From Lingula anatina (Eukaryota; Animalia; Brachiopoda), in the NCBI GenBank assembly GCA_051362555.1, contig JBPQGU010000016.1:1054001-1118000 (forward strand): a DNA stretch of 64,000 bases, read 5' to 3'. Position numbers and translations under genes: made by a program. The notes under the pieces are model-generated. The model was given only the letters and a program-made list of their open reading frames with translations. It searched no databases and was not told the DNA's origin. Every line of letters begins with the position of its first letter. The first letter of the stretch is position 1. Shown piece after piece: positions 1-36,562 of the stretch.

Positions 1-208
1 TGCACATTTGAACGTTTTAATTACAATATACGCTTATTATCCGTTTTGTGAGCAAACGCATTTTTCTTACGGTATAGAACATAACAATAAAATGAAAAAG
101 CAGGGCAAGTAAAGATTACTTGTCTTGAAAAAGTTTGTTGTAATTGTTTATATAATGGATAGGTCTACGTTATCAATAAATACGTTACCAAAAAACGTGA
201 AGGTATTG

Positions 209-627
209 TTTTCTGTTTTCATTCTTTGTTGTCCTTTGGTGCGACACTGTGGATGCGTGCGACGTTGTACATGTGCGCACGCATGTATATACGTCGCTCA
301 TCCTTCTTTGTTACGTTATTATGATACATACGTTACCGTGAAGCGTGTAAATATACATTTATTCTATTTACATTGGTTGTCTTTTGTTTTGTGGGCACAA
401 AACACTTCTGCCTTAAAGTGTTGGCCCACAAAACGAAAGACAAACCACTGTAAATAAAATAAATAAATATTTACACGGATCACGGTAACGTATATATCGG
501 TAACGTATGTATCATTTTAACGTAACAAAGAAGAATGAGCGACGTATAAACATGCGTGCGCACATATACAACGTCACGCGCACACACAGAAGCTTGACAA
601 AGGACAACAAACAATGAAATCAAAAAA
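209..627. repeat. Long imperfect inverted repeat (fold-back/MITE-like palindrome), present in every array unit
   Basis: Arms are ~200 bp. CTTTGTTGTCCTTTG pairs with CAAAGGACAACAAAC; ACGTCGCTCATCCTTCTTTGTTACGTTA with TAACGTAACAAAGAAGAATGAGCGACGT; TTTTGTGGGC with GCCCACAAAA. The apex is AACACTT(401-407)-8 nt loop-AAGTGTT(416-422). Confidence 0.92.
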
Positions 628-800
628 TCATGAACTTTTAAAACGGTCATGAAAAACCTTGGTCGAGGACTGGGGTTGCCCGGGTTGAAATAGGGCACCC
701 GGATTATCGATTGAAATAGCAAATATATACACATGTACATCCAAACTGGCCCTCTCCCTGACAAGCTAGAAAATTTCCATTTGATCCATCACTCAGCAAC

Positions 801-898
801 GAAGCTTCTGTGGCTCCGTGGTAACTCCGTTGCCTTGTGCGTGAGTGTATCCTTGTCCGCTGGTTCGAGACCCAGCAAAATGACTCTGATATTTTTTT
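801..898 (+). ncRNA. Pol III type-2 small RNA gene A, vault-RNA-like (~98 nt); first of 19 copies
   Basis: A-box TGGCTCCGTGG 811-821, B-box GGTTCGAGACC 862-872, T7 terminator 892-898. TGGCTCCGTGGTAACTCCG and TGGTTCGAGACCC resemble the recalled human vtRNA blocks TAGCTCAGCGGTTACTTCG and TGGTTCGAGACCC. It does not fold as a tRNA. Other copies start at 2768, 4735, 6701, 8668, 10635, 12602, 14569, 16536, 18503, 20469, 22435, 24401, 26368, 28335, 30302, 32267, 34232 and 36198. The 5' end is approximate. Confidence 0.5.
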
Positions 899-958
899 CC
901 TAAAAGTAATCTGTAAAATTTGCTTTTGATTACTATAAGAGGAAACTCGTACCTACGG

Positions 959-1165
959 AGGGTGGGCGGGTCAGTCACGGCGCAGTCGGTAGCGTGCTTG
1001 GATGCAAAAAAACAATACAAAGCGTCACCAACCATGGTAACGAGAAGTCACGAGTTCGAATCCCGGATGAGGCACGTCAGTCCATCACGACAACGACCTT
1101 GCCCCCTGTTCGGGCAGTAACCAGAACGAATGCAGGCTCTCGTGGGTCCTAGCAATTTACCTTTT
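959..1165 (+). ncRNA. Pol III type-2 unit B: tRNA-derived structured RNA or SINE-like element (~205 nt); first of 19 copies
   Basis: TATAAG at 934-939, A-box CGGCGCAGTCGG 978-989 within an intact D-arm (GCGC-AGTCGGTA-GCGT), B-box GAGTTCGAATC 1052-1062, first TTTT at 1162-1165. The acceptor and T stems are broken, so this is not a functional tRNA. The G-rich 5' end (959-972) is complementary to GACCTTGCCCCCT (1095-1107). Confidence 0.5.
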
Positions 1166-1731
1166 GCACAATAAAACGATATACTTGAGAATAAGTGATG
1201 GATTTAAAAAGAACATAGTAGCATAAAGTCTGCGTCGTCAATAATATGACATGGGAATGGTCATTGATCTCTATCTTTTTCCAGCTACGTCACCGATCAA
1301 ACTTGCATTGAGCTATTGCTAACCGCGTATAGAGCCTCGCCTGTCATACTGCAATTTCAGCAAAATGGGCTCTTTTCTCGGTGGGATTTTCAGAGGAAAA
1401 AAGTTTTATTTTTTACAAAAGTCGCCCCGCCGCTATTGCTTTTACCAGTTGTAAACTACGTTTGTCTTCTTATGCAACCCCTTCCTATCTTGGGTCCATG
1501 CTTCTCGAGACGGTTCATATGTTCATTCAGTACCCGAGGCAACTCCACAGTCAACAATGAAAGAGTAAAATCTACTCAAAACTGAAACCGCCAAGGTGTG
1601 AACAGCTGTGGATCTCATCGCGCTCTTTAACGTCAAAGGTGAAACCACACGTTATCTCATTGCAAAATAAAATGAAACTAAAAACATCTGAACTCATCTT
1701 ACTAGGAACATTTCCAGCGGATAAGCAATGA

Positions 1732-1851
1732 AACCGATCGACCTTGTATTGATTCAGTAGCTTCAGGTATAACAGCACGTCATACCACCAACCGATCGAC
1801 CTTGAATTGATTCAGTAGCTTCAGGTATAACAAACAACTCGTCATACCACC
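1732..1851. repeat. Two-copy 58 bp direct sub-repeat inside each array unit
   Basis: AACCGATCGACCTTG(T/A)ATTGATTCAGTAGCTTCAGGTATAACA...CGTCATACCACC at 1732-1789 and 1790-1851. Confidence 0.95.
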
Positions 1852-4800
1852 TGTTAACCGCGTTCACCCGAAAAAAAATTTCTTCTGGGCAGAATTATTT
1901 GCCAAATATGTTTTACTCGAAATTCGCATCGACGCAATTGCTTGAATGGAAAAACACACCAGTTTTCTGCACATTTGAACGTTTTAATTACAATATACGC
2001 TTATTATCCGTTTTGTGAGCAAACGCATTTTTCTTACGGTATAGAACATCACAATAAAATGAAAAAGCAGGGCAAGTAAAGATTACTTGTCTTGAAAAAG
2101 TTTGTTGTAATTGTTTATATAATGGATAGGTCTACGTTATCAATAAATACGTTACCAAAAAACGTGAAGGTATTGTTTTCTGTTTTCATTCTTTGTTGTC
2201 CTTTGGTGCGACACTGTGGATGCGTGCGACGTTGTACATGTGCGCACGCATGTATATACGTCGCTCATCCTTCTTTGTTACGTTATTATGATACATACGT
2301 TACCATGAAGCGTGTAAATATACATTTATTCTATTTACATTGGTTGTCTTTTGTTTTGTGGGCACAAAACACTTCTGCCTTAAAGTGTTGGCCCACAAAA
2401 CGAAAGACAAACCACTGTAAATAAAATAAATAAATATTTACACGGATCACGGTAACGTATATATCGGTAACGTATGTATCATTTTAACGTAACAAAGAAG
2501 AATGAGCGACGTATAAACATGCGTGCGCACATATACAACGTCACGCGCACACACAGAGTCTTGACAAAGGACAACAAACAATGAAATCAAAAAATCATGA
2601 ACTTTTAAAACGGTCATGAAAAACCTTGGTCGAGGACTGGGGTTGCCCGGGTTGAAATAGGGCACCCGGATTATCGATTGAAATAGCAAATATATACACA
2701 TGTACATCCAAACTGGCCCTCTCCCTGACAAGCTAGAAAATTTCCATTTGATCCATCACTCAGCAACGAAGCTTCTGTGGCTCCGTGGTAACTCCGTTGC
2801 CTTGTGCGTGAGTGTATCCTTGTCCGCTGGTTCGAGACCCAGCAAAATGACTCTGATATTTTTTTCCTAAAAGTAATCTGTAAAATTTGCTTTTGATTAC
2901 TATAAGAGGAAACTCGTACCTACGGAGGGTGGGCGGGTCAGTCACGGCGCAGTCGGTAGCGTGCTTGGATGCAAAAAAACAATACAAAGCGTCACCAACC
3001 ATGGTAACGAGAAGTCACGAGTTCGAATCCCGGATGAGGCACGTCAGTCCATCACGACAACGACCTTGCCCCCTGTTCGGGCAGTAACCAGAACGAATGC
3101 GGGCTCTCGTGGGTCCTAGCAATTTACCTTTTGCACAATAAAACGATATACTTGAGAATAAGTGATGGATTTAAAAAGAACATAGTAGCATAAAGTCTGC
3201 GTCGTCAATAATATGACATGGGAATGGTCATTGATCTCTATCTTTTTCCAGCTACGTCACCGATCAAACTTGCATTGAGCTATTGCTAACCGCGTATAGA
3301 GCCTCGCCTGTCATACTGCAATTTCAGCAAAATGGGCTCTTTTCTCGGTGGGATTTTCAGAGGAAAAAAGTTTTATTTTTTACAAAAGTCGCCCCGCCGC
3401 TATTGCTTTTACCAGTTGTAAACTACGTTTGTCTTCTTATGCAACCCCTTCCTATCTTGGGTCCATGCTTCTCGAGACGGTTCATATGTTCATTCAGTAC
3501 CCGAGGCAACTCCACAGTCAACAATGAAAGAGTAAAATCTACTCAAAACTGAAACCGCCAAGGTGTGAACAGCTGTGGATCTCATCGCGCTCTTTAACGT
3601 CAAAGGTGAAACCACACGTTATCTCATTGCAAAATAAAATGAAACTAAAAACATCTGAACTCATCTTACTAGGAACATTTCCAGCGGATAAGCAATGAAA
3701 CCGATCGACCTTGTATTGATTCAGTAGCTTCAGGTATAACAGCACGTCATACCACCAACCGATCGACCTTGAATTGATTCAGTAGCTTCAGGTATAACAA
3801 ACAACTCGTCATACCACCTGTTAACCGCGTTCACCCGAAAAAAAATTTCTTCTGGGCAGAATTATTTGCCAAATATGTTTTACTCGAAATTCGCATCGAC
3901 GCAATTGCTTGAATGGAAAAACACACCAGTTTTCTGCACATTTGAACGTTTTAATTACAATATACGCTTATTATCCGTTTTGTGAGCAAACGCATTTTTC
4001 TTACGGTATAGAACATAACAATAAAATGAAAAAGCAGGGCAAGTAAAGATTACTTGTCTTGAAAAAGTTTGTTGTAATTGTTTATATAATGGATAGGTCT
4101 ACGTTATCAATAAATACGTTACCAAAAAACGTGAAGGTATTGTTTTCTGTTTTCATTCTTTGTTGTCCTTTGGTGCGACACTGTGGATGCGTGCGACGTT
4201 GTACATGTGCGCACGCATGTATATACGTCGCTCATCCTTCTTTGTTACGTTATTATGATACATACGTTACCGTGAAGCGTGTAAATATACATTTATTCTA
4301 TTTACATTGGTTGTCTTTTGTTTTGTGGGCACAAAACACTTCTGCCTTAAAGTGTTGGCCCACAAAACGAAAGACAAACCACTGTAAATAAAATAAATAA
4401 ATATTTACACGGATCACGGTAACGTATATATCGGTAACGTATGTATCATTTTAACGTAACAAAGAAGAATGAGCGACGTATAAACATGCGTGCGCACATA
4501 TACAACGTCACGCGCACACACAGAGTCTTGACAAAGGACAACAAACAATGAAATCAAAAAATCATGAACTTTTAAAACGGTCATGAAAAACCTTGGTCGA
4601 GGACTGGGGTTGCCCGGGTTGAAATAGGGCACCCGGATTATCGATTGAAATAGCAAATATATACACATGTACATCCAAACTGGCCCTCTCCCTGACAAGC
4701 TAGAAAATTTCCATTTGATCCATCACTCAGCAACGAAGCTTCTGTGGCTCCGTGGTAACTCCGTTGCCTTGTGCGTGAGTGTATCCTTGTCCGCTGGTTC

Positions 4801-7800
4801 GAGACCCAGCAAAATGACTCTGATATTTTTTTCCTAAAAGTAATCTGTAAAATTTGCTTTTGATTACTATAAGAGGAAACTCGTACCTACGGAGGGTGGG
4901 CGGGTCAGTCACGGCGCAGTCGGTAGCGTGCTTGGATGCAAAAAAACAATACAAAGCGTCACCAACCATGGTAACGAGAAGTCACGAGTTCGAATCCCGG
5001 ATGAGGCACGTCAGTCCATCACGACAACGACCTTGCCCCCTGTTCGGGCAGTAACCAGAACGAATGCGGGCTCTCGTGGGTCCTAGCAATTTACCTTTTG
5101 CACAATAAAACGATATACTTGAGAATAAGTGATGGATTTAAAAAGAACATAGTAGCATAAAGTCTGCGTCGTCAATAATATGACATGGGAATGGTCATTG
5201 ATCTCTATCTTTTTCCAGCTACGTCACCGATCAAACTTGCATTGAGCTATTGCTAACCGCGTATAGAGCCTCGCCTGTCATACTGCAATTTCAGCAAAAT
5301 GGGCTCTTTTCTCGGTGGGATTTTCAGAGGAAAAAAGTTTTATTTTTTACAAAAGTCGCCCCGCCGCTATTGCTTTTACCAGTTGTAAACTACGTTTGTC
5401 TTCTTATGCACCCCCTTCCTATCTTGGGTCCATGCTTCTCGAGACGGTTCATATGTTCATTCAGTACCCGAGGCAACTCCACAGTCAACAATGAAAGAGT
5501 AAAATCTACTCAAAACTGAAACCGCCAAGGTGTGAACAGCTGTGGATCTCATCGCGCTCTTTAACGTCAAAGGTGAAACCACACGTTATCTCATTGCAAA
5601 ATAAAATGAAACTAAAAACATCTGAACTCATCTTACTAGGAACATTTCCAGCGGATAAGCAATGAAACCGATCGACCTTGTATTGATTCAGTAGCTTCAG
5701 GTTTAACAGCACGTCATACCACCAACCGATCGACCTTGAATTGATTCAGTAGCTTCAGGTATAACAAACAACACGTCATACCACCTGTTAACCGCGTTCA
5801 CCCGAAAAAAAATTTCTTCTGGGCAGAATTATTTGCCAAATATGTTTTACTCGAAATTCGCATCGACGCAATTGCTTGAATGGAAAACACACCAGTTTTC
5901 TGCACATTTGAACGTTTTAATTACAATAAACGCTTATTATCCGTTTTGTGAGCAAACGCATTTTTCTTACGGTATAGAACATAACAATAAAATGAAAAAG
6001 CAGGGCAAGTAAAGATTACTTGTCTTGAAAAAGTTTGTTGTAATTGTTTATATAATGGATAGGTCTACGTTATCAATAAATACGTTACCAAAAAACGTGA
6101 AGGTATTGTTTTCTGTTTTCATTCTTTGTTGTCCTTTGGTGCGACACTGTGGGTGCGTGCGACGTTGTACATGTGCGCACGCATGTATATACGTCGCTCA
6201 TCCTTCTTTGTTACGTTATTATGATACATACGTTACCATGAAGCGTGTAAATATACATTTATTCTATTTACATTGGTTGTCTTTTGTTTTGTGGGCACAA
6301 AACACTTCTGCCTTAAAGTGTTGGCCCACAAAACGAAAGACAAACCACTGTAAATAAAATAAATAAATATTTACACGGATCACGGTAACGTATATATCGG
6401 TAACGTATGTATCATTTTAACGTAACAAAGAAGAATGAGCGACGTATAAACATGCGTGCGCACATATACAACGTCACGCGCACACACAGAGTCTTGACAA
6501 AGGACAACAAACAATGAAATCAAAAAATCATGAACTTTTAAAACGGTCATGAAAAACCTTGGTCGAGGACTGGGGTTGCCCGGGTTGAAATAGGGCACCC
6601 GGATTATCGATTGAAATAGCAAATATATACACATGTACATCCAAACTGGCCCTCTCCCTGACAAGCTAGAAAATTTCCATTTGATCCATCACTCAGCAAC
6701 GAAGCTTCTGTGGCTCCGTGGTAACTCCGTTGCCTTGTGCGTGAGTGTATCCTTGTCCGCTGGTTCGAGACCCAGCAAAATGACTCTGATATTTTTTTCC
6801 TAAAAGTAATCTGTAAAATTTGCTTTTGATTACTATAAGAGGAAACTCGTACCTACGGAGGGTGGGCGGGTCAGTCACGGCGCAGTCGGTAGCGTGCTTG
6901 GATGCAAAAAAACAATACAAAGCGTCACCAACCATGGTAACGAGAAGTCACGAGTTCGAATCCCGGATGAGGCACGTCAGTCCATCACGACAACGACCTT
7001 GCCCCCTGTTCGGGCAGTAACCAGAACGAATGCGGGCTCTCGTGGGTCCTAGCAATTTACCTTTTGCACAATAAAACGATATACTTGAGAATAAGTGATG
7101 GATTTAAAAAGAACATAGTAGCATAAAGTCTGCGTCGTCAATAATATGACATGGGAATGGTCATTGATCTCTATCTTTTTCCAGCTACGTCACCGATCAA
7201 ACTTGCATTGAGCTATTGCTAACCGCGTATAGAGCCTCGCCTGTCATACTGCAATTTCAGCAAAATGGGCTCTTTTCTCGGTGGGATTTTCAGAGGAAAA
7301 AAGTTTTATTTTTTACAAAAGTCGCCCCGCCGCTATTGCTTTTACCAGTTGTAAACTACGTTTGTCTTCTTATGCAACCCCTTCCTATCTTGGGTCCATG
7401 CTTCTCGAGACGGTTCATATGTTCATTCAGTACCCGAGGCAACTCCACAGTCAACAATGAAAGAGTAAAATCTACTCAAAACTGAAACCGCCAAGGTGTG
7501 AACAGCTGTGGATCTCATCGCGCTCTTTAACGTCAAAGGTGAAACCACACGTTATCTCATTGCAAAATAAAATGAAACTAAAAACATCTGAACTCATCTT
7601 ACTAGGAACATTTCCAGCGGATAAGCAATGAAACCGATCGACCTTGTATTGATTCAGTAGCTTCAGGTATAACAGCACGTCATACCACCAACCGATCGAC
7701 CTTGAATTGATTCAGTAGCTTCAGGTATAACAAACAACTCGTCATACCACCTGTTAACCGCGTTCACCCGAAAAAAAATTTCTTCTGGGCAGAATTATTT

Positions 7801-10800
7801 GCCAAATATGTTTTACTCGAAATTCGCATCGACGCAATTGCTTGAATGGAAAAACACACCAGTTTTCTGCACATTTGAACGTTTTAATTACAATATACGC
7901 TTATTATCCGTTTTGTGAGCAAACGCATTTTTCTTACGGTATAGAACATAACAATAAAATGAAAAAGCAGGGCAAGTAAAGATTACTTGTCTTGAAAAAG
8001 TTTGTTGTAATTGTTTATATAATGGATAGGTCTACGTTATCAATAAATACGTTACCAAAAAACGTGAAGGTATTGTTTTCTGTTTTCATTCTTTGTTGTC
8101 CTTTGGTGCGACACTGTGGATGCATGCGACGTTGTACATGTGCGCACGCATGTATATACGTCGCTCATCCTTCTTTGTTACGTTATTATGATACATACGT
8201 TACCGTGAAGCGTGTAAATATACATTTATTCTATTTACATTGGTTGTCTTTTGTTTTGTGGGCACAAAACACTTCTGCCTTAAAGTGTTGGCCCACAAAA
8301 CGAAAGACAAACCACTGTAAATAAAATAAATAAATATTTACACGGATCACGGTAACGTATATATCGGTAACGTATGTATCATTTTAACGTAACAAAGAAG
8401 AATGAGCGACGTATAAACATGCGTGCGCACATATACAACGTCACGCGCACACACAGAGTCTTGACAAAGGACAACAAACAATGAAATCAAAAAATCATGA
8501 ACTTTTAAAACGGTCATGAAAAACCTTGGTCGAGGACTGGGGTTGCCCGGGTTGAAATAGGGCACCCGGATTATCGATTGAAATAGCAAATATATACACA
8601 TGTACATCCAAACTGGCCCTCTCCCTGACAAGCTAGAAAATTTCCATTTGATCCATCACTCAGCAACGAAGCTTCTGTGGCTCCGTGGTAACTCCGTTGC
8701 CTTGTGCGTGAGTGTATCCTTGTCCGCTGGTTCGAGACCCAGCAAAATGACTCTGATATTTTTTTCCTAAAAGTAATCTGTAAAATTTGCTTTTGATTAC
8801 TATAAGAGGAAACTCGTACCTACGGAGGGTGGGCGGGTCAGTCACGGCGCAGTCGGTAGCGTGCTTGGATGCAAAAAAACAATACAAAGCGTCACCAACC
8901 ATGGTAACGAGAAGTCACGAGTTCGAATCCCGGATGAGGCACGTCAGTCCATCACGACAACGACCTTGCCCCCTGTTCGGGCAGTAACCAGAACGAATGC
9001 GGGCTCTCGTGGGTCCTAGCAATTTACCTTTTGCACAATAAAACGATATACTTGAGAATAAGTGATGGATTTAAAAAGAACATAGTAGCATAAAGTCTGC
9101 GTCGTCAATAATATGACATGGGAATGGTCATTGATCTCTATCTTTTTCCAGCTACGTCACCGATCAAACTTGCATTGAGCTATTGCTAACCGCGTATAGA
9201 GCCTCGCCTGTCATACTGCAATTTCAGCAAAATGGGCTCTTTTCTCGGTGGGATTTTCAGAGGAAAAAAGTTTTATTTTTTACAAAAGTCGCCCCGCCGC
9301 TATTGCTTTTACCAGTTGTAAACTACGTTTGTCTTCTTATGCAACCCCTTCCTATCTTGGGTCCATGCTTCTCGAGACGGTTCATATGTTCATTCAGTAC
9401 CCGAGGCAACTCCACAGTCAACAATGAAAGAGTAAAATCTACTCAAAACTGAAACCGCCAAGGTGTGAACAGCTGTGGATCTCATCGCGCTCTTTAACGT
9501 CAAAGGTGAAACCACACGTTATCTCATTGCAAAATAAAATGAAACTAAAAACATCTGAACTCATCTTACTAGGAACATTTCCAGCGGATAAGCAATGAAA
9601 CCGATCGACCTTGTATTGATTCAGTAGCTTCAGGTATAACAGCACGTCATACCACCAACCGATCGACCTTGAATTGATTCAGTAGCTTCAGGTATAACAA
9701 ACAACTCGTCATACCACCTGTTAACCGCGTTCACCCGAAAAAAAATTTCTTCTGGGCAGAATTATTTGCCAAATATGTTTTACTCGAAATTCGCATCGAC
9801 GCAATTGCTTGAATGGAAAAACACACCAGTTTTCTGCACATTTGAACGTTTTAATTACAATATACGCTTATTATCCGTTTTGTGAGCAAACGCATTTTTC
9901 TTACGGTATAGAACATAACAATAAAATGAAAAAGCAGGGCAAGTAAAGATTACTTGTCTTGAAAAAGTTTGTTGTAATTGTTTATATAATGGATAGGTCT
10001 ACGTTATCAATAAATACGTTACCAAAAAACGTGAAGGTATTGTTTTCTGTTTTCATTCTTTGTTGTCCTTTGGTGCGACACTGTGGATGCGTGCGACGTT
10101 GTACATGTGCGCACGCATGTATATACGTCGCTCATCCTTCTTTGTTACGTTATTATGATACATACGTTACCGTGAAGCGTGTAAATATACATTTATTCTA
10201 TTTACATTGGTTGTCTTTTGTTTTGTGGGCACAAAACACTTCTGCCTTAAAGTGTTGGCCCACAAAACGAAAGACAAACCACTGTAAATAAAATAAATAA
10301 ATATTTACACGGATCACGGTAACGTATATATCGGTAACGTATGTATCATTTTAACGTAACAAAGAAGAATGAGCGACGTATAAACATGCGTGCGCACATA
10401 TACAACGTCACGCGCACACACAGAGTCTTGACAAAGGACAACAAACAATGAAATCAAAAAATCATGAACTTTTAAAACGGTCATGAAAAACCTTGGTCGA
10501 GGACTGGGGTTGCCCGGGTTGAAATAGGGCACCCGGATTATCGATTGAAATAGCAAATATATACACATGTACATCCAAACTGGCCCTCTCCCTGACAAGC
10601 TAGAAAATTTCCATTTGATCCATCACTCAGCAACGAAGCTTCTGTGGCTCCGTGGTAACTCCGTTGCCTTGTGCGTGAGTGTATCCTTGTCCGCTGGTTC
10701 GAGACCCAGCAAAATGACTCTGATATTTTTTTCCTAAAAGTAATCTGTAAAATTTGCTTTTGATTACTATAAGAGGAAACTCGTACCTACGGAGGGTGGG

Positions 10801-13800
10801 CGGGTCAGTCACGGCGCAGTCGGTAGCGTGCTTGGATGCAAAAAAACAATACAAAGCGTCACCAACCATGGTAACGAGAAGTCACGAGTTCGAATCCCGG
10901 ATGAGGCACGTCAGTCCATCACGACAACGACCTTGCCCCCTGTTCGGGCAGTAACCAGAACGAATGCAGGCTCTCGTGGGTCCTAGCAATTTACCTTTTG
11001 CACAATAAAACGATATACTTGAGAATAAGTGATGGATTTAAAAAGAACATAGTAGCATAAAGTCTGCGTCGTCAATAATATGACATGGGAATGGTCATTG
11101 ATCTCTATCTTTTTCCAGCTACGTCACCGATCAAACTTGCATTGAGCTATTGCTAACCGCGTATAGAGCCTCGCCTGTCATACTGCAATTTCAGCAAAAT
11201 GGGCTCTTTTCTCGGTGGGATTTTCAGAGGAAAAAAGTTTTATTTTTTACAAAAGTCGCCCCGCCGCTATTGCTTTTACCAGTTGTAAACTACGTTTGTC
11301 TTCTTATGCAACCCCTTCCTATCTTGGGTCCATGCTTCTCGAGACGGTTCATATGTTCATTCAGTACCCGAGGCAACTCCACAGTCAACAATGAAAGAGT
11401 AAAATCTACTCAAAACTGAAACCGCCAAGGTGTGAACAGCTGTGGATCTCATCGCGCTCTTTAACGTCAAAGGTGAAACCACACGTTATCTCATTGCAAA
11501 ATAAAATGAAACTAAAAACATCTGAACTCATCTTACTAGGAACATTTCCAGCGGATAAGCAATGAAACCGATCGACCTTGTATTGATTCAGTAGCTTCAG
11601 GTATAACAGCACGTCATACCACCAACCGATCGACCTTGAATTGATTCAGTAGCTTCAGGTATAACAAACAACTCGTCATACCACCTGTTAACCGCGTTCA
11701 CCCGAAAAAAAATTTCTTCTGGGCAGAATTATTTGCCAAATATGTTTTACTCGAAATTCGCATCGACGCAATTGCTTGAATGGAAAAACACACCAGTTTT
11801 CTGCACATTTGAACGTTTTAATTACAATATACGCTTATTATCCGTTTTGTGAGCAAACGCATTTTTCTTACGGTATAGAACATCACAATAAAATGAAAAA
11901 GCAGGGCAAGTAAAGATTACTTGTCTTGAAAAAGTTTGTTGTAATTGTTTATATAATGGATAGGTCTACGTTATCAATAAATACGTTACCAAAAAACGTG
12001 AAGGTATTGTTTTCTGTTTTCATTCTTTGTTGTCCTTTGGTGCGACACTGTGGATGCGTGCGACGTTGTACATGTGCGCACGCATGTATATACGTCGCTC
12101 ATCCTTCTTTGTTACGTTATTATGATACATACGTTACCATGAAGCGTGTAAATATACATTTATTCTATTTACATTGGTTGTCTTTTGTTTTGTGGGCACA
12201 AAACACTTCTGCCTTAAAGTGTTGGCCCACAAAACGAAAGACAAACCACTGTAAATAAAATAAATAAATATTTACACGGATCACGGTAACGTATATATCG
12301 GTAACGTATGTATCATTTTAACGTAACAAAGAAGAATGAGCGACGTATAAACATGCGTGCGCACATATACAACGTCACGCGCACACACAGAGTCTTGACA
12401 AAGGACAACAAACAATGAAATCAAAAAATCATGAACTTTTAAAACGGTCATGAAAAACCTTGGTCGAGGACTGGGGTTGCCCGGGTTGAAATAGGGCACC
12501 CGGATTATCGATTGAAATAGCAAATATATACACATGTACATCCAAACTGGCCCTCTCCCTGACAAGCTAGAAAATTTCCATTTGATCCATCACTCAGCAA
12601 CGAAGCTTCTGTGGCTCCGTGGTAACTCCGTTGCCTTGTGCGTGAGTGTATCCTTGTCCGCTGGTTCGAGACCCAGCAAAATGACTCTGATATTTTTTTC
12701 CTAAAAGTAATCTGTAAAATTTGCTTTTGATTACTATAAGAGGAAACTCGTACCTACGGAGGGTGGGCGGGTCAGTCACGGCGCAGTCGGTAGCGTGCTT
12801 GGATGCAAAAAAACAATACAAAGCGTCACCAACCATGGTAACGAGAAGTCACGAGTTCGAATCCCGGATGAGGCACGTCAGTCCATCACGACAACGACCT
12901 TGCCCCCTGTTCGGGCAGTAACCAGAACGAATGCGGGCTCTCGTGGGTCCTAGCAATTTACCTTTTGCACAATAAAACGATATACTTGAGAATAAGTGAT
13001 GGATTTAAAAAGAACATAGTAGCATAAAGTCTGCGTCGTCAATAATATGACATGGGAATGGTCATTGATCTCTATCTTTTTCCAGCTACGTCACCGATCA
13101 AACTTGCATTGAGCTATTGCTAACCGCGTATAGAGCCTCGCCTGTCATACTGCAATTTCAGCAAAATGGGCTCTTTTCTCGGTGGGATTTTCAGAGGAAA
13201 AAAGTTTTATTTTTTACAAAAGTCGCCCCGCCGCTATTGCTTTTACCAGTTGTAAACTACGTTTGTCTTCTTATGCAACCCCTTCCTATCTTGGGTCCAT
13301 GCTTCTCGAGACGGTTCATATGTTCATTCAGTACCCGAGGCAACTCCACAGTCAACAATGAAAGAGTAAAATCTACTCAAAACTGAAACCGCCAAGGTGT
13401 GAACAGCTGTGGATCTCATCGCGCTCTTTAACGTCAAAGGTGAAACCACACGTTATCTCATTGCAAAATAAAATGAAACTAAAAACATCTGAACTCATCT
13501 TACTAGGAACATTTCCAGCGGATAAGCAATGAAACCGATCGACCTTGTATTGATTCAGTAGCTTCAGGTATAACAGCACGTCATACCACCAACCGATCGA
13601 CCTTGAATTGATTCAGTAGCTTCAGGTATAACAAACAACTCGTCATACCACCTGTTAACCGCGTTCACCCGAAAAAAAATTTCTTCTGGGCAGAATTATT
13701 TGCCAAATATGTTTTACTCGAAATTCGCATCGACGCAATTGCTTGAATGGAAAAACACACCAGTTTTCTGCACATTTGAACGTTTTAATTACAATATACG

Positions 13801-16800
13801 CTTATTATCCGTTTTGTGAGCAAACGCATTTTTCTTACGGTATAGAACATAACAATAAAATGAAAAAGCAGGGCAAGTAAAGATTACTTGTCTTGAAAAA
13901 GTTTGTTGTAATTGTTTATATAATGGATAGGTCTACGTTATCAATAAATACGTTACCAAAAAACGTGAAGGTATTGTTTTCTGTTTTCATTCTTTGTTGT
14001 CCTTTGGTGCGACACTGTGGATGCGTGCGACGTTGTACATGTGCGCACGCATGTATATACGTCGCTCATCCTTCTTTGTTACGTTATTATGATACATACG
14101 TTACCGTGAAGCGTGTAAATATACATTTATTCTATTTACATTGGTTGTCTTTTGTTTTGTGGGCACAAAACACTTCTGCCTTAAAGTGTTGGCCCACAAA
14201 ACGAAAGACAAACCACTGTAAATAAAATAAATAAATATTTACACGGATCACGGTAACGTATATATCGGTAACGTATGTATCATTTTAACGTAACAAAGAA
14301 GAATGAGCGACGTATAAACATGCGTGCGCACATATACAACGTCACGCGCACACACAGAGTCTTGACAAAGGACAACAAACAATGAAATCAAAAAATCATG
14401 AACTTTTAAAACGGTCATGAAAAACCTTGGTCGAGGACTGGGGTTGCCCGGGTTGAAATAGGGCACCCGGATTATCGATTGAAATAGCAAATATATACAC
14501 ATGTACATCCAAACTGGCCCTCTCCCTGACAAGCTAGAAAATTTCCATTTGATCCATCACTCAGCAACGAAGCTTCTGTGGCTCCGTGGTAACTCCGTTG
14601 CCTTGTGCGTGAGTGTATCCTTGTCCGCTGGTTCGAGACCCAGCAAAATGACTCTGATATTTTTTTCCTAAAAGTAATCTGTAAAATTTGCTTTTGATTA
14701 CTATAAGAGGAAACTCGTACCTACGGAGGGTGGGCGGGTCAGTCACGGCGCAGTCGGTAGCGTGCTTGGATGCAAAAAAACAATACAAAGCGTCACCAAC
14801 CATGGTAACGAGAAGTCACGAGTTCGAATCCCGGATGAGGCACGTCAGTCCATCACGACAACGACCTTGCCCCCTGTTCGGGCAGTAACCAGAACGAATG
14901 CGGGCTCTCGTGGGTCCTAGCAATTTACCTTTTGCACAATAAAACGATATACTTGAGAATAAGTGATGGATTTAAAAAGAACATAGTAGCATAAAGTCTG
15001 CGTCGTCAATAATATGACATGGGAATGGTCATTGATCTCTATCTTTTTCCAGCTACGTCACCGATCAAACTTGCATTGAGCTATTGCTAACCGCGTATAG
15101 AGCCTCGCCTGTCATACTGCAATTTCAGCAAAATGGGCTCTTTTCTCGGTGGGATTTTCAGAGGAAAAAAGTTTTATTTTTTACAAAAGTCGCCCCGCCG
15201 CTATTGCTTTTACCAGTTGTAAACTACGTTTGTCTTCTTATGCAACCCCTTCCTATCTTGGGTCCATGCTTCTCGAGACGGTTCATATGTTCATTCAGTA
15301 CCCGAGGCAACTCCACAGTCAACAATGAAAGAGTAAAATCTACTCAAAACTGAAACCGCCAAGGTGTGAACAGCTGTGGATCTCATCGCGCTCTTTAACG
15401 TCAAAGGTGAAACCACACGTTATCTCATTGCAAAATAAAATGAAACTAAAAACATCTGAACTCATCTTACTAGGAACATTTCCAGCGGATAAGCAATGAA
15501 ACCGATCGACCTTGTATTGATTCAGTAGCTTCAGGTATAACAGCACGTCATACCACCAACCGATCGACCTTGAATTGATTCAGTAGCTTCAGGTATAACA
15601 AACAACACGTCATACCACCTGTTAACCGCGTTCACCCGAAAAAAAATTTCTTCTGGGCAGAATTATTTGCCAAATATGTTTTACTCGAAATTCGCATCGA
15701 CGCAATTGCTTGAATGGAAAAACACACCAGTTTTCTGCACATTTGAACGTTTTAATTACAATATACGCTTATTATCCGTTTTGTGAGCAAACGCATTTTT
15801 CTTACGGTATAGAACATAACAATAAAATGAAAAAGCAGGGCAAGTAAAGATTACTTGTCTTGAAAAAGTTTGTTGTAATTGTTTATATAATGGATAGGTC
15901 TACGTTATCAATAAATACGTTACCAAAAAACGTGAAGGTATTGTTTTCTGTTTTCATTCTTTGTTGTCCTTTGGTGCGACACTGTGGATGCGTGCGACGT
16001 TGTACATGTGCGCACGCATGTATATACGTCGCTCATCCTTCTTTGTTACGTTATTATGATACATACGTTACCGTGAAGCGTGTAAATATACATTTATTCT
16101 ATTTACATTGGTTGTCTTTTGTTTTGTGGGCACAAAACACTTCTGCCTTAAAGTGTTGGCCCACAAAACGAAAGACAAACCACTGTAAATAAAATAAATA
16201 AATATTTACACGGATCACGGTAACGTATATATCGGTAACGTATGTATCATTTTAACGTAACAAAGAAGAATGAGCGACGTATAAACATGCGCGCGCACAT
16301 ATACAACGTCACGCGCACACACAGAGTCTTGACAAAGGACAACAAACAATGAAATCAAAAAATCATGAACTTTTAAAACGGTCATGAAAAACCTTGGTCG
16401 AGGACTGGGGTTGCCCGGGTTGAAATAGGGCACCCGGATTATCGATTGAAATAGCAAATATATACACATGTACATCCAAACTGGCCCTCTCCCTGACAAG
16501 CTAGAAAATTTCCATTTGATCCATCACTCAGCAACGAAGCTTCTGTGGCTCCGTGGTAACTCCGTTGCCTTGTGCGTGAGTGTATCCTTGTCCGCTGGTT
16601 CGAGACCCAGCAAAATGACTCTGATATTTTTTTCCTAAAAGTAATCTGTAAAATTTGCTTTTGATTACTATAAGAGGAAACTCGTACCTACGGAGGGTGG
16701 GCGGGTCAGTCACGGCGCAGTCGGTAGCGTGCTTGGATGCAAAAAAACAATACAAAGCGTCACCAACCATGGTAACGAGAAGTCACGAGTTCGAATCCCG

Positions 16801-19800
16801 GATGAGGCACGTCAGTCCATCACGACAACGACCTTGCCCCCTGTTCGGGCAGTAACCAGAACGAATGCGGGCTCTCGTGGGTCCTAGCAATTTACCTTTT
16901 GCACAATAAAACGATATACTTGAGAATAAGTGATGGATTTAAAAAGAACATAGTAGCATAAAGTCTGCGTCGTCAATAATATGACATGGGAATGGTCATT
17001 GATCTCTATCTTTTTCCAGCTACGTCACCGATCAAACTTGCATTGAGCTATTGCTAACCGCGTATAGAGCCTCGCCTGTCATACTGCAATTTCAGCAAAA
17101 TGGGCTCTTTTCTCGGTGGGATTTTCAGAGGAAAAAAGTTTTATTTTTTACAAAAGTCGCCCCGCCGCTATTGCTTTTACCAGTTGTAAACTACGTTTGT
17201 CTTCTTATGCAACCCCTTCCTATCTTGGGTCCATGCTTCTCGAGACGGTTCATATGTTCATTCAGTACCCGAGGCAACTCCACAGTCAACAATGAAAGAG
17301 TAAAATCTACTCAAAACTGAAACCGCCAAGGTGTGAACAGCTGTGGATCTCATCGCGCTCTTTAACGTCAAAGGTGAAACCACACGTTATCTCATTGCAA
17401 AATAAAATGAAACTAAAAACATCTGAACTCATCTTACTAGGAACATTTCCAGCGGATAAGCAATGAAACCGATCGACCTTGTATTGATTCAGTAGCTTCA
17501 GGTATAACAGCACGTCATACCACCAACCGATCGACCTTGAATTGATTCAGTAGCTTCAGGTATAACAAACAACACGTCATACCACCTGTTAACCGCGTTC
17601 ACCCGAAAAAAAATTTCTTCTGGGCAGAATTATTTGCCAAATATGTTTTACTCGAAATTCGCATCGACGCAATTGCTTGAATGGAAAAACACACCAGTTT
17701 TCTGCACATTTGAACGTTTTAATTACAATATACGCTTATTATCCGTTTTGTGAGCAAACGCATTTTTCTTACGGTATAGAACATAACAATAAAATGAAAA
17801 AGCAGGGCAAGTAAAGATTACTTGTCTTGAAAAAGTTTGTTGTAATTGTTTATATAATGGATAGGTCTACGTTATCAATAAATACGTTACCAAAAAACGT
17901 GAAGGTATTGTTTTCTGTTTTCATTCTTTGTTGTCCTTTGGTGCGACACTGTGGATGCGTGCGACGTTGTACATGTGCGCACGCATGTATATACGTCGCT
18001 CATCCTTCTTTGTTACGTTATTATGATACATACGTTACCGTGAAGCGTGTAAATATACATTTATTCTATTTACATTGGTTGTCTTTTGTTTTGTGGGCAC
18101 AAAACACTTCTGCCTTAAAGTGTTGGCCCACAAAACGAAAGACAAACCACTGTAAATAAAATAAATAAATATTTACACGGATCACGGTAACGTATATATC
18201 GGTAACGTATGTATCATTTTAACGTAACAAAGAAGAATGAGCGACGTATAAACATGCGCGCGCACATATACAACGTCACGCGCACACACAGAGTCTTGAC
18301 AAAGGACAACAAACAATGAAATCAAAAAATCATGAACTTTTAAAACGGTCATGAAAAACCTTGGTCGAGGACTGGGGTTGCCCGGGTTGAAATAGGGCAC
18401 CCGGATTATCGATTGAAATAGCAAATATATACACATGTACATCCAAACTGGCCCTCTCCCTGACAAGCTAGAAAATTTCCATTTGATCCATCACTCAGCA
18501 ACGAAGCTTCTGTGGCTCCGTGGTAACTCCGTTGCCTTGTGCGTGAGTGTATCCTTGTCCGCTGGTTCGAGACCCAGCAAAATGACTCTGATATTTTTTT
18601 CCTAAAAGTAATCTGTAAAATTTGCTTTTGATTACTATAAGAGGAAACTCGTACCTACGGAGGGTGGGCGGGTCAGTCACGGCGCAGTCGGTAGCGTGCT
18701 TGGATGCAAAAAAACAATACAAAGCGTCACCAACCATGGTAACGAGAAGTCACGAGTTCGAATCCCGGATGAGGCACGTCAGTCCATCACGACAACGACC
18801 TTGCCCCCTGTTCGGGCAGTAACCAGAACGAATGCGGGCTCTCGTGGGTCCTAGCAATTTACCTTTTGCACAATAAAACGATATACTTGAGAATAAGTGA
18901 TGGATTTAAAAAGAACATAGTAGCATAAAGTCTGCGTCGTCAATAATATGACATGGGAATGGTCATTGATCTCTATCTTTTTCCAGCTACGTCACCGATC
19001 AAACTTGCATTGAGCTATTGCTAACCGCGTATAGAGCCTCGCCTGTCATACTGCAATTTCAGCAAAATGGGCTCTTTTCTCGGTGGGATTTTCAGAGGAA
19101 AAAAGTTTTATTTTTTACAAAAGTCGCCCCGCCGCTATTGCTTTTACCAGTTGTAAACTACGTTTGTCTTCTTATGCACCCCCTTCCTATCTTGGGTCCA
19201 TGCTTCTCGAGACGGTTCATATGTTCATTCAGTACCCGAGGCAACTCCACAGTCAACAATGAAAGAGTAAAATCTACTCAAAACTGAAACCGCCAAGGTG
19301 TGAACAGCTGTGGATCTCATCGCGCTCTTTAACGTCAAAGGTGAAACCACACGTTATCTCATTGCAAAATAAAATGAAACTAAAAACATCTGAACTCATC
19401 TTACTAGGAACATTTCCAGCGGATAAGCAATGAAACCGATCGACCTTGTATTGATTCAGTAGCTTCAGGTATAACAGCACGTCATACCACCAACCGATCG
19501 ACCTTGAATTGATTCAGTAGCTTCAGGTATAACAAACAACACGTCATACCACCTGTTAACCGCGTTCACCCGAAAAAAAATTTCTTCTGGGCAGAATTAT
19601 TTGCCAAATATGTTTTACTCGAAATTCGCATCGACGCAATTGCTTGAATGGAAAACACACCAGTTTTCTGCACATTTGAACGTTTTAATTACAATATACG
19701 CTTATTATCCGTTTTGTGAGCAAACGCATTTTTCTTACGGTATAGAACATAACAATAAAATGAAAAAGCAGGGCAAGTAAAGATTACTTGTCCTGAAAAA

Positions 19801-22800
19801 GTTTGTTGTAATTGTTTATATAATGGATAGGTCTACGTTATCAATAAATACGTTACCAAAAAACGTGAAGGTATTGTTTTCTGTTTTCATTCTTTGTTGT
19901 CCTTTGGTGCGACACTGTGGATGCGTGCGACGTTGTACATGTGCGCACGCATGTATATACGTCGCTCATCCTTCTTTGTTACGTTATTATGATACATACG
20001 TTACCGTGAAGCGTGTAAATATACATTTATTCTATTTACATTGGTTGTCTTTTGTTTTGTGGGCACAAAACACTTCTGCCTTAAAGTGTTGGCCCACAAA
20101 ACGAAAGACAAACCACTGTAAATAAAATAAATAAATATTTACACGGATCACGGTAACGTATATATCGGTAACGTATGTATCATTTTAACGTAACAAAGAA
20201 GAATGAGCGACGTATAAACATGCGCGCGCACATATACAACGTCACGCGCACACACAGAGTCTTGACAAAGGACAACAAACAATGAAATCAAAAAATCATG
20301 AACTTTTAAAACGGTCATGAAAAACCTTGGTCGAGGACTGGGGTTGCCCGGGTTGAAATAGGGCACCCGGATTATCGATTGAAATAGCAAATATATACAC
20401 ATGTACATCCAAACTGGCCCTCTCCCTGACAAGCTAGAAAATTTCCATTTGATCCATCACTCAGCAACGAAGCTTCTGTGGCTCCGTGGTAACTCCGTTG
20501 CCTTGTGCGTGAGTGTATCCTTGTCCGCTGGTTCGAGACCCAGCAAAATGACTCTGATATTTTTTTCCTAAAAGTAATCTGTAAAATTTGCTTTTGATTA
20601 CTATAAGAGGAAACTCGTACCTACGGAGGGTGGGCGGGTCAGTCACGGCGCAGTCGGTAGCGTGCTTGGATGCAAAAAAACAATACAAAGCGTCACCAAC
20701 CATGGTAACGAGAAGTCACGAGTTCGAATCCCGGATGAGGCACGTCAGTCCATCACGACAACGACCTTGCCCCCTGTTCGGGCAGTAACCAGAACGAATG
20801 CGGGCTCTCGTGGGTCCTAGCAATTTACCTTTTGCACAATAAAACGATATACTTGAGAATAAGTGATGGATTTAAAAAGAACATAGTAGCATAAAGTCTG
20901 CGTCGTCAATAATATGACATGGGAATGGTCATTGATCTCTATCTTTTTCCAGCTACGTCACCGATCAAACTTGCATTGAGCTATTGCTAACCGCGTATAG
21001 AGCCTCGCCTGTCATACTGCAATTTCAGCAAAATGGGCTCTTTTCTCGGTGGGATTTTCAGAGGAAAAAAGTTTTATTTTTTACAAAAGTCGCCCCGCCG
21101 CTATTGCTTTTACCAGTTGTAAACTACGTTTGTCTTCTTATGCAACCCCTTCCTATCTTGGATCCATGCTTCTCGAGACGGTTCATATGTTCATTCAGTA
21201 CCCGAGGCAACTCCACAGTCAACAATGAAAGAGTAAAATCTACTCAAAACTGAAACCGCCAAGGTGTGAACAGCTGTGGATCTCATCGCGCTCTTTAACG
21301 TCAAAGGTGAAACCACACGTTATCTCATTGCAAAATAAAATGAAACTAAAAACATCTGAACTCATCTTACTAGGAACATTTCCAGCGGATAAGCAATGAA
21401 ACCGATCGACCTTGTATTGATTCAGTAGCTTCAGGTATAACAGCACGTCATACCACCAACCGATCGACCTTGAATTGATTCAGTAGCTTCAGGTATAACA
21501 AACAACACGTCATACCACCTGTTAACCGCGTTCACCCGAAAAAAAATTTCTTCTGGGCAGAATTATTTGCCAAATATGTTTTACTCGAAATTCACATCGA
21601 CGCAATTGCTTGAATGGAAAACACACCAGTTTTCTGCACATTTGAACGTTTTAATTACAATATACGCTTATTATCCGTTTTGTGAGCAAACGCATTTTTC
21701 TTACGGTATAGAACATAACAATAAAATGAAAAAGCAGGGCAAGTAAAGATTACTTGTCTTGAAAAAGTTTGTTGTAATTGTTTATATAATGGATAGGTCT
21801 ACGTTATCAATAAATACGTTACCAAAAAACGTGAAGGTATTGTTTTCTGTTTTCATTCTTTGTTGTCCTTTGGTGCGACACTGTGGATGCGTGCGACGTT
21901 GTACATGTGCGCACGCATGTATATTCGTCGCTCATCCTTCTTTGTTACGTTATTATGATACATACGTTACCGTGAAGCGTGTAAATATACATTTATTCTA
22001 TTTACATTGGTTGTCTTTTGTTTTGTGGGCACAAAACACTTCTGCCTTAAAGTGTTGGCCCACAAAACGAAAGACAAACCACTGTAAATAAAATAAATAA
22101 ATATTTACACGGATCACGGTAACGTATATATCGGTAACGTATGTATCATTTTAACGTAACAAAGAAGAATGAGCGACGTATAAACATGCGCGCGCACATA
22201 TACAACGTCACGCGCACACACAGAGTCTTGACAAAGGACAACAAACAATGAAATCAAAAAATCATGAACTTTTAAAACGGTCATGAAAAACCTTGGTCGA
22301 GGACTGGGGTTGCCCGGGTTGAAATAGGGCACCCGGATTATCGATTGAAATAGCAAATATATACACATGTACATCCAAACTGGCCCTCTCCCTGACAAGC
22401 TAGAAAATTTCCATTTGATCCATCACTCAGCAACGAAGCTTCTGTGGCTCCGTGGTAACTCCGTTGCCTTGTGCGTGAGTGTACCCTTGTCCGCTGGTTC
22501 GAGACCCAGCAAAATGACTCTGATATTTTTTTCCTAAAAGTAATCTGTAAAATTTGCTTTTGATTACTATAAGAGGAAACTCGTACCTACGGAGGGTGGG
22601 CGGGTCAGTCACGGCGCAGTCGGTAGCGTGCTTGGATGCAAAAAAACAATACAAAGCGTCACCAACCATGGTAACGAGAAGTCACGAGTTCGAATCCCGG
22701 ATGAGGCACGTCAGTCCATCACGACAACGACCTTGCCCCCTGTTCGGGCAGTAACCAGAACGAATGCGGGCTCTCGTGGGTCCTAGCAATTTACCTTTTG

Positions 22801-36197: not shown

Positions 36198-36295
36198 GAA
36201 GCTTCTGTGGCTCCGTGGTAACTCCGTTGCCTTGTGCGTGAGTGTACCCTTGTCCGCTGGTTCGAGACCCAGCAAAATGACTCTGATATTTTTTT
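36198..36295 (+). ncRNA. Last copy of vault-RNA-like Pol III gene A
   Basis: Same A-box, B-box and T7 as 801-898, with one T>C change in the central region shared with the copy at 22435. Confidence 0.45.
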
Positions 36296-36355
36296 CCTAA
36301 AAGTAATCTGTAAAATTTGCTTTTCATTACTATAAGAGGAAACTCGTACCTACGG

Positions 36356-36562
36356 AGGGTGGGCGGGTCAGTCACGGCGCAGTCGGTAGCGTGCTTGGAT
36401 GCAAAAAAACAATACAAAGCGTCACCAACCATGGTAACGAGAAGTCACGAGTTCGAATCCCGGATGAGGCACGTCAGTCCATCACGACAACGACCTTGCC
36501 CCCTGTTCGGGCAGTAACCAGAACGAATGCGGGCTCTCGTGGGTCCTAGCAATTTACCTTTT
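36356..36562 (+). ncRNA. Last copy of tRNA-derived Pol III unit B
   Basis: Same A-box, B-box and TTTT as 959-1165. Confidence 0.45.

What the first reader, a model, noticed from the sequence alone, without database searches (positions are those of the whole stretch)
801..898. Candidate vault RNA gene in at least 19 tandem copies
Seen: A-box followed by TAACTCCG, a variable centre, TGGTTCGAGACCC and T7, total ~98 nt. GGT/ACC and CT(C)CG/CGAG can pair the A-box side to the B-box side as in the vtRNA panhandle. From memory, 14 of 19 positions match the human vtRNA 5' block and 13 of 13 match the vtRNA1-2 B-box block. Known: vtRNAs are well described mainly in deuterostomes and usually in few copies. 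Inference: a large vtRNA array in an invertebrate would be unusual. The terminal stem is weak, so a tRNA-derived origin remains possible.
Basis: partly seen in the sequence, partly recalled or inferred. Interest (0 to 1): 0.75.

Follow-up and report, generated by a model that had tools for sequence, protein, structure and literature searches.

The report
Orphan small-RNA gene array in Lingula
A lamp shell (Lingula) carries at least 19 near-identical tandem copies of a 2-kb unit holding tRNA-type promoter boxes and a stop signal, which likely make a ~100-base RNA that shares two short motifs with vault RNA but is predicted to lack the vault fold, so it is more likely a new tRNA-type small RNA amplified like rodent 4.5SH RNA than a true vault RNA.

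Summary
In detail: 19 copies (17 identical) of an A box, B box and T7 unit lie in a 1965-1967-bp tandem repeat that runs off the window's left end. The host is the brachiopod Lingula anatina. The vault-like motifs are real and uncommon in tRNAs: 14 of 19 against a published vault primer, reached by 2 of 447 panel tRNAs. The defining vault features fail. Rfam gives no Vault hit at E up to 10, although a paper states that the family holds lophotrochozoan members. The panhandle has pair probabilities near 0 and costs 11 kcal/mol. The 5' and 3' ends pair no better than shuffles. The B box sits in a T-arm-like hairpin instead. No specific tRNA parent was shown either, and mRNA-type RNA-seq cannot test a 98-base RNA. 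Best reading (0.5): a tRNA-type Pol III small-RNA gene, amplified in a homogenised array like 4.5SH or snaR. Rivals: a divergent vault RNA (0.25) and a silent passenger in a repeat (0.2).

The parts
801..898 (+). Short Pol III type-2 gene candidate, copy 1 of 19; start site not known (purines at 791-804 are plausible)
811..821 (+). A box, TGGCTCCGTGG (C at the tRNA A14 position)
   Evidence: sequence
822..829 (+). Post-A-box motif TAACTCCG, 6 of 8 like the vault TTACTTCG
859..876 (+). Predicted T-arm-like 5-bp hairpin GCTGG/CCAGC with the B box (863-871) in its 8-nt loop; pair probabilities 0.87-1.0
847..892 (+). Predicted irregular 3' hairpin topped by the B-box loop (dinucleotide z -2.1, bounds chosen after the fact)
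790..847 (+). Predicted 5' stem-loop domain if the RNA starts near 790 (z -2.4 to -3.0 with dinucleotide shuffles, -1.7 to -3.0 with mononucleotide shuffles; bounds chosen after the fact)
892..898 (+). T7 Pol III terminator, 20 nt after the B box
770..777 (+). A+T-rich stretch at -31/-24 if the start is 801 (possible TATA-like box; inference); no CRE with at most 1 mismatch upstream
970..1165 (+). Second Pol III-like unit in the same repeat: A-box-like 978-989, B box 1054-1062, T4 at 1162; tRNA/SINE-like head. A diverged relative of about 936-1005 is read in RNA, likely from another locus
209..627 (.). Long imperfect palindrome (MITE/foldback-like, 77.5% arm identity) in each unit; related copies continue in 38000-40700
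1732..1851 (.). Two direct copies of about 60 bp inside the unit
1..37999 (+). Tandem array, unit 1965-1967 bp; element starts 801, 2768, 4735, 6701, 8668, 10635, 12602, 14569, 16536, 18503, 20469, 22435, 24401, 26368, 28335, 30302, 32267, 34232, 36198; open at the left end

Best explanation
Each 1.97-kb repeat holds a tRNA-type A box, B box and T7 terminator that likely direct RNA polymerase III to make a ~95-105-base RNA, predicted to fold into two hairpins with the B box in a T-arm-like loop rather than the vault panhandle, so this is likely a tRNA/SINE-type small-RNA gene amplified in tandem, working like rodent 4.5SH or ape snaR RNA. Shown: boxes, terminator, 19 near-identical copies, and palindromic repeats inside the unit and beyond its right end. 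Inferred from established Pol III biology: TFIIIC binds the boxes, places TFIIIB on the A+T-rich -30 region, and Pol III starts at about 791-804 and stops in T7, leaving a 3' oligo-U that La would bind. Inferred: the unit was amplified and homogenised by unequal crossing-over between direct copies of the palindromic element that flank it, which multiplies the dose of the RNA. Inferred and weakest: the RNA acts as an abundant hairpin ligand or decoy for RNA-binding proteins, as snaR does for NF90.
For: A+B+T4 arrangement in 0 of 5000 shuffles. 19 copies; the 18 full units differ by 0-9 of 1967 columns. T-arm-like hairpin with pair probabilities 0.87-1.0, vault pairs 0.000. Natural tRNAs carry nearly the same variable-loop/T-arm letters (panel selected by that motif). 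Vault model, panhandle and 3' block all fail. Few reads at 92% likeness in four mRNA-type runs argue against an abundant young dispersed SINE, so it looks gene-like. The last unit ends inside a palindrome copy, and a 95.6% direct copy lies at 38759-39325. Precedents: 4.5SH genes in 4-5-kb tandem repeats (PMC10137851 passages) and snaR in tandem arrays (PMC3045588 passages).
Against: No transcript is shown: there were no sense reads over 801-898 in 4 runs, though these libraries are not suited to a 98-base RNA. No parent tRNA is shown: the best alignment to a 150-tRNA subset was reached by 25 of 150 box-preserving shuffles, and to 17 intron-bearing tRNA-Tyr by 49 of 500; the acceptor register has 4 of 7 pairs and there is no D or anticodon stem. 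The vault-like letters are rare in tRNAs (8 of 438 after box A; 3 of 414 for GA at positions 59-60) and must then be coincidence or convergence. 801-896 folds no better than shuffles (z -1.2 dinucleotide, 0.0 mononucleotide). No sign of selection: 1 of the 20 variable columns falls in the 98 nt, about what length predicts.
Confidence: 0.5

Rival explanations
1. It is a divergent vault RNA gene, or a recent derivative of one, that keeps the two vault promoter-motif blocks but has lost or refolds the panhandle; the array would supply a high dose of RNA for TEP1 and vault particles.
For: 14 of 19 to the human 5' block, reached by 2 of 447 panel tRNAs; post-box motif in 8 of 438; GA at 59-60 in 3 of 414. 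Length and terminator fit 80-150 nt. By eye against Table S9 of PMC8824774: one putative Fasciola vault RNA has the same ACTCCG variant, four of five have GTGG before the motif and all five have CCCA near the 3' end (a possible U819-A874 pair here), and four share CTTGTCCG (chance about 0.14 by my estimate). Homology searches are known to miss vault RNAs (PMC5006418, PMC2770079 passages).
Against: No RF00006 hit at E up to 10 on the unit, on 161 nt or on the 98 nt, though the family is said to hold Lottia, Helobdella and Macrostomum members; no positive control for the model could be run. Panhandle pair probability 0.000; gap 11.3 kcal/mol against 8.3 +/- 3.8 for shuffled flanks. Terminal duplex matched by 973 of 1000 and 512 of 1000 shuffles; A-side/B-side duplex by 909 of 1000. 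The 3' end is no closer to four published vault 3' ends than shuffles (281-1484 of 2000). No upstream CRE.
Confidence: 0.25
2. It is a dead tRNA pseudogene or SINE remnant carried as a passenger in a young long-period satellite generated by the flanking palindromic element; it is not expressed or has no function.
For: No sense reads. The A box lacks A14. There is no excess conservation over the spacer. The unit also holds a second degenerate Pol III-like element and a MITE-like palindrome whose copies continue without the element in 38000-40700.
Against: B box and T7 are intact in 19 of 19 copies. The libraries are uninformative: the 243-nt SNORA73 control was itself missed in 2 of 4 runs. Tandem arrays with kb spacers are typical of functional RNA genes in some invertebrates (PMC11067881 passages).
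Confidence: 0.2
3. It is a Y-like RNA for Ro60: its 3' hairpin carries GUCCG/UGAC with an unpaired C, as in the Ro-binding helix of Y RNAs (motif recalled, from no call).
For: GUC/GAC pairs (855-857/882-884) have probability above 0.95 and C858 is unpaired (0.99).
Against: No Y RNA hit in Rfam. The helix is only 3 bp, G859-U881 is not formed, and it is not at the RNA's ends. Animal Y genes use external promoters (recalled).
Confidence: 0.05

Closest known systems
Vault RNA (Rfam RF00006; human vtRNA1-1/1-2/2-1; putative Fasciola vtRNAs, PMC8824774)
   Same: Internal A and B boxes, ~100 nt, oligo-T terminator, 6 of 8 of the motif after box A, and a GAGACC-type B box (vault form recalled).
   Different: No 5'/3' panhandle or terminal stem, no 3' block pairing with box A, no Rfam hit, no upstream CRE. 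It has 19 or more homogenised copies, against 1-5 genes in the species described in the passages read.
Rodent 4.5SH RNA (PMC10137851, PMC7279448, passages)
   Same: Short type-2 Pol III gene with a non-canonical A box and a T7 terminator, each gene inside a kb-long tandem repeat.
   Different: 4.5SH derives from 7SL/B1, has hundreds of copies in 4-5-kb units, a CRE, and shown expression and function. Here the parent, expression and function are not shown and there is no sequence relation.
Hominid snaR RNAs (PMC3045588, passages)
   Same: Structured ~100-120-nt Pol III RNA from an internal promoter in tandem arrays; duplications bordered by repeats.
   Different: Alu-derived, primate only, binds NF90, ends in oligo-A then oligo-U; analogy only.
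Tandem arrays of RNA genes in Hydractinia and Nematostella (PMC11067881, passages)
   Same: Evenly spaced near-identical RNA gene copies with long homogenised spacers in an invertebrate.
   Different: Those arrays hold known families (rRNA, tRNA, U snRNAs, U3, SRP); vault RNA is listed as present but not among the arrays named. This element matches no Rfam family.
tRNA genes and tRNA-derived SINE heads
   Same: A box, B box in a T-arm-like hairpin, and variable-loop/T-arm letters close to natural tRNAs.
   Different: No cloverleaf, no ARAGORN or Rfam tRNA call, 8-nt T loop, no LINE-like tail or dispersed copies seen.

Membership tests
Vault RNA (RF00006) | Internal Pol III box A and box B | tested here: met
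   811-821 (one non-consensus C) and 863-871; arrangement in 0 of 5000 shuffles
Vault RNA (RF00006) | TTACTTCG directly after box A (kept in Lottia and Helobdella per PMC8824774) | tested here: inconclusive
   6 of 8; 5 of 7 post-box letters are reached by 8 of 438 panel tRNAs
Vault RNA (RF00006) | 80-150 nt ending in an oligo-T terminator | tested here: met
   T7 at 892-898; the length is predicted, the start is not mapped
Vault RNA (RF00006) | 5' and 3' regions pair into a panhandle with a terminal stem | tested here: not met
   pair probabilities 0.000; 11 kcal/mol penalty; terminal duplex no better than shuffles
Vault RNA (RF00006) | 3' block after box B that pairs with box A | tested here: not met
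   0-3 of 16-18 ungapped matches to four published 3' ends; local scores matched by 281-1484 of 2000 shuffles
Vault RNA (RF00006) | Significant covariance-model score | tested here: not met
   no hit at gathering score or at E up to 10; no positive control available
Vault RNA (RF00006) | Upstream CRE-like element near -50 (described for vertebrate genes) | tested here: not met
   no TGACGTCA within 1 mismatch upstream of 801
Vault RNA (RF00006) | Co-purifies with MVP/TEP1 vault particles | not testable with these tools
   needs a bench experiment; MVP and TEP1 in Lingula were not checked
tRNA gene | Cloverleaf with acceptor, D, anticodon and T stems | tested here: not met
   ARAGORN 0 genes; no Rfam tRNA hit; acceptor register 4 of 7 pairs, probability 0
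tRNA-derived SINE | Head traceable to a tRNA beyond the two boxes | tested here: inconclusive
   25 of 150 and 49 of 500 box-preserving shuffles score as well; panel is phage and giant-virus tRNA
tRNA-derived SINE | Many dispersed copies, tail, target-site duplications | tested here: inconclusive
   none in 38001-64000 and almost no related reads in mRNA runs; whole genome not held
4.5SH/snaR-type tandem Pol III RNA genes (a kind, not a sequence family) | Short type-2 Pol III gene within a long homogenised tandem repeat | tested here: met
4.5SH/snaR-type tandem Pol III RNA genes (a kind, not a sequence family) | Discrete abundant RNA is made | tested here: inconclusive
   mRNA-type libraries only
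Spliced-leader RNA | Leader exon on many mRNA 5' ends; donor site plus Sm site | tested here: not met
   GTGAGT at 841-846, but no sense partial reads in 4 runs; the T run is followed by CC, not a purine-closed Sm site (Sm consensus recalled)
Y RNA (RF00019) | Terminal Ro-binding stem with bulged C; model hit | tested here: not met
   no Rfam hit; only a 3-bp internal helix

The most novel reading that the evidence does not exclude
A vault RNA lineage that has kept the vault promoter motifs but swapped the panhandle for a two-hairpin, T-arm-like fold and been amplified into an rDNA-like array of at least 19 copies in a brachiopod: a link between tRNA and vault RNA, and the first large vault RNA array met in the papers I read.
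Probability: 0.25. Interest if true: 0.65.

Novelty: new member of a known kind. Interest (0 to 1): 0.38.

Why it matters
If it is expressed, Lingula has independently evolved a multicopy small Pol III RNA gene of the 4.5SH/snaR kind, for which my reading turned up only mammalian examples. Such RNAs can have real jobs: 4.5SH is reported to block harmful SINE exonisation (PMC10137851 passage). If it is a vault RNA after all, it would show that the panhandle is dispensable and explain why homology searches miss vault RNAs in many invertebrates, and a 19-copy source would make vault RNA function easy to test. If it is silent, it is an ordinary long-period repeat.

Tried and rejected
Rfam at gathering score on the whole window gave only SNORA73. 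At E up to 10 it gave only miRNA-type hits on the palindrome and weak snoRNA and other hits far below their thresholds; all rejected. The two-box pattern found 1 locus in metagenome contigs, 0 in viral contigs and 5 in prokaryote genomes. None looks like a small-RNA gene (1 of 6 has a T4 nearby), and about this many are expected by chance, so no homologue was found. These collections hold little animal DNA. Sequencing-run search: no RNA holder listed. Four of 9 listed runs were laid, 6-25% of each read. Over 795-888, three gave depth 0 and X1 gave 1.4 in the antisense orientation, against 20-75x on pumilio exons. A tRNA-Tyr origin, suggested by recall, was not significant. A likeness of 785-802 to the body of the second element was matched by 500 of 500 shuffles. 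Recalled likenesses to U11 and to C/D or H/ACA snoRNA had no Rfam support and no H box. Open frames over the element are stop-to-stop only and were not pursued. The Hydractinia supplement numbered S18 turned out to be a miRNA table. Earlier-finding look-ups by sequence found nothing.

Full report
Observation. The element at 801-898 is present as described: an A-box-like sequence at 811-821 with C in place of the tRNA-invariant A14, TAACTCCG at 822-829, a B box at 863-871 inside TGGTTCGAGACCC, and T7 at 892-898. BLAST and exact matching give 19 full copies spaced 1965-1967 bp, 17 identical and 2 with one T>C. The 18 complete units differ at 20 of 1967 columns, by 0-9 between pairs (mean 4.6), and neighbours tend to share variants. 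The array runs off the left end of the window and ends near 37999. An A box + B box + T4 arrangement arose in 0 of 5000 shuffled units and not in 38001-64000, so the Pol III type-2 anatomy is more than chance.

Host and setting. The exon at 47424-47648 translates to 75 residues that are 100% identical to the Lingula anatina pumilio homolog (2 hits among 14 candidates), so the host is a brachiopod, a lophotrochozoan. To the right lie an RPS8-like gene (named from my knowledge of the protein, not searched) and pumilio, with an intronic SNORA73. Each unit also holds a long imperfect palindrome (209-627, 77.5%), a 60-bp direct duplication (1732-1851) and a second Pol III-like element (about 970-1165; B box 1054-1062, T4 at 1162). 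Related palindrome copies continue without the element in 38000-40700, one 95.6% identical over 567 bp. The last unit ends inside such a copy. From this I infer amplification by unequal crossing-over between direct copies; this is not shown.

For vault RNA. Against a published human vtRNA1-1 primer (PMC8057075, passages) the element matches 14 of 19. As background I used 447 distinct tRNAs called in loci L078-L200 (123 loci, 80 with full flanks). These are phage and giant-virus tRNAs, selected by an A-box pattern, with introns over 60 nt dropped. Of them, 2 of 447 reach 14 of 19, 8 of 438 reach 5 of 7 after the box, and 3 of 414 have GA at B-box positions 59-60. The likeness therefore goes beyond a generic tRNA; for a freely drifting sequence I estimate about 1 in 1000. 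By eye, the five putative Fasciola vault RNAs (PMC8824774, Table S9) include one with the same ACTCCG variant and share CCCA near the 3' end.

Against vault RNA. Rfam release 15 gave no Vault hit at gathering score or at E up to 10 on the unit, on 161 nt or on the 98 nt. PMC8824774 (passages) states that RF00006 holds Lottia, Helobdella and Macrostomum sequences and that Lottia and Helobdella keep TTACTTCG. I could run no positive control for the model, and the second element is also missed by the tRNA model, so Rfam is insensitive to degenerate Pol III genes. [quoted passage not shown] Here the proposed pairs have probability 0.000 for six 5' ends, and forcing them gives -12.2 against -23.5 kcal/mol. 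The terminal duplex is equalled by 973 or 512 of 1000 shuffles. The 11.3 kcal/mol gap is like that of shuffled flanks (8.3 +/- 3.8; 81 of 400 as large, 19 of 400 within 2). The 20 nt after box B are no closer to four published vault 3' ends than shuffles. No CRE lies upstream.

What it folds into. The B box sits in the 8-nt loop of a perfect 5-bp stem (859-863/872-876, probability 0.87-1.0), like a tRNA T arm with one extra base, on top of an irregular hairpin 847-892. If the RNA starts near 790, a second domain forms at 790-847. The signal is modest and the bounds were chosen after the fact: z -2.4 to -3.0 with dinucleotide shuffles and -1.7 to -3.0 with mononucleotide shuffles for the 5' domain, -2.1 for the 3' one; 801-896 alone is not unusual (z -1.2 and 0.0). 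A pattern from 849-868 found 76 viral loci, 66 with the tRNA spacing; ARAGORN was run on 60 of the 76. Some of these tRNAs carry nearly the same variable-loop and T-arm letters. A fair test found no significant parent: 25 of 150 box-preserving shuffles matched a 150-tRNA subset as well, and 49 of 500 matched 17 intron-bearing tRNA-Tyr as well. A tRNA origin is thus plausible but not shown.

Expression. Four of 9 listed RNA runs were laid, 6-25% of each. None gave sense reads over the element; X1 gave depth 1.4 over 795-841 in the antisense orientation. The runs are of this species, with pumilio exons at 20-75x in three and 3-8x per strand in the fourth, but the 243-nt SNORA73 control was missed in 2 of 4. 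They therefore cannot test a 98-base RNA. They do argue against a spliced leader and against an abundant young SINE family, both of which would give many partial reads (inference). Eleven reads in X4 and X5 come from a diverged relative of about 936-1005, likely at another locus.

Mechanism and comparison. The most likely reading is a tRNA-type Pol III gene: TFIIIC on the boxes, TFIIIB on an A+T-rich -30 region, a 95-105-base RNA ending in oligo-U, multiplied by a homogenised array. These steps follow from established Pol III biology (PMC7279448, passages) and are inferred here. It would work like 4.5SH RNA (hundreds of genes, each in a 4-5-kb tandem repeat; PMC10137851, passages) or snaR (PMC3045588, passages), without sequence kinship to either. 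I do not file it as a vault RNA, because the panhandle, the 3' block and the model score were tested and not met. Weighing the rare motifs against the missing structure and the many degenerate Pol III units a genome holds, I leave 0.25 for a divergent vault RNA and 0.2 for a silent passenger.

Novelty. Lophotrochozoan vault RNAs are in print (PMC2770079 and PMC8824774, passages), as are tandem arrays of RNA genes in invertebrates (PMC11067881, passages). I found no description of this element or of a large vault RNA array in searches, of which I saw the listings and read passages of some papers. The two key papers (Stadler 2009; Mosig 2009) were not held, and the large Hydractinia supplement and one scanned Fasciola file could not be read; they may bear on copy numbers and on invertebrate vault sequences. 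Other papers seen as passages only: PMC550661, PMC10491885, PMC7916137, PMC12547018, PMC12992080, PMC5006418. Verdict: a real, uncatalogued Pol III gene array, a new member of a known kind, interest 0.38.

Noticed in passing
window 970-1165 (and in every unit): Second Pol III-like element with a tRNA/SINE-like head, an A-rich insert between the boxes and a T4 stop. Reads in two runs show a diverged relative of about 936-1005, including sequence upstream of the head, read on the opposite strand and going on unlike after 1005.
   Followed up: partly
window 209-627 and 37539-40714: Long imperfect palindrome (MITE/foldback-like) in each unit, with several diverged copies in both orientations right of the array; it draws spurious miRNA-precursor hits in Rfam.
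   Followed up: partly
window 841-854: GTGAGT directly followed by GTATCCTT inside the element, resembling a major- and a minor-spliceosome donor back to back (consensus recalled); no splicing seen.
   Followed up: partly
window 55133-55375: SNORA73 (117.9 bits) in a pumilio intron; X1 reads there carry many other letters and foreign 3' flanks, suggesting further SNORA73 copies elsewhere.
   Followed up: no
window 54681-54684: Pumilio reads enter this exon at two acceptors 3 bases apart (tandem NAGNAG-type choice) in three runs.
   Followed up: no
window 53030-53328: 29-bp minisatellite, 10.4 copies, just before a pumilio exon.
   Followed up: no
window 1732-1851: Two tandem copies of about 60 bp in each unit; a 20-bp stretch at 1292-1311 resembles their start (E 0.48).
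   Followed up: no
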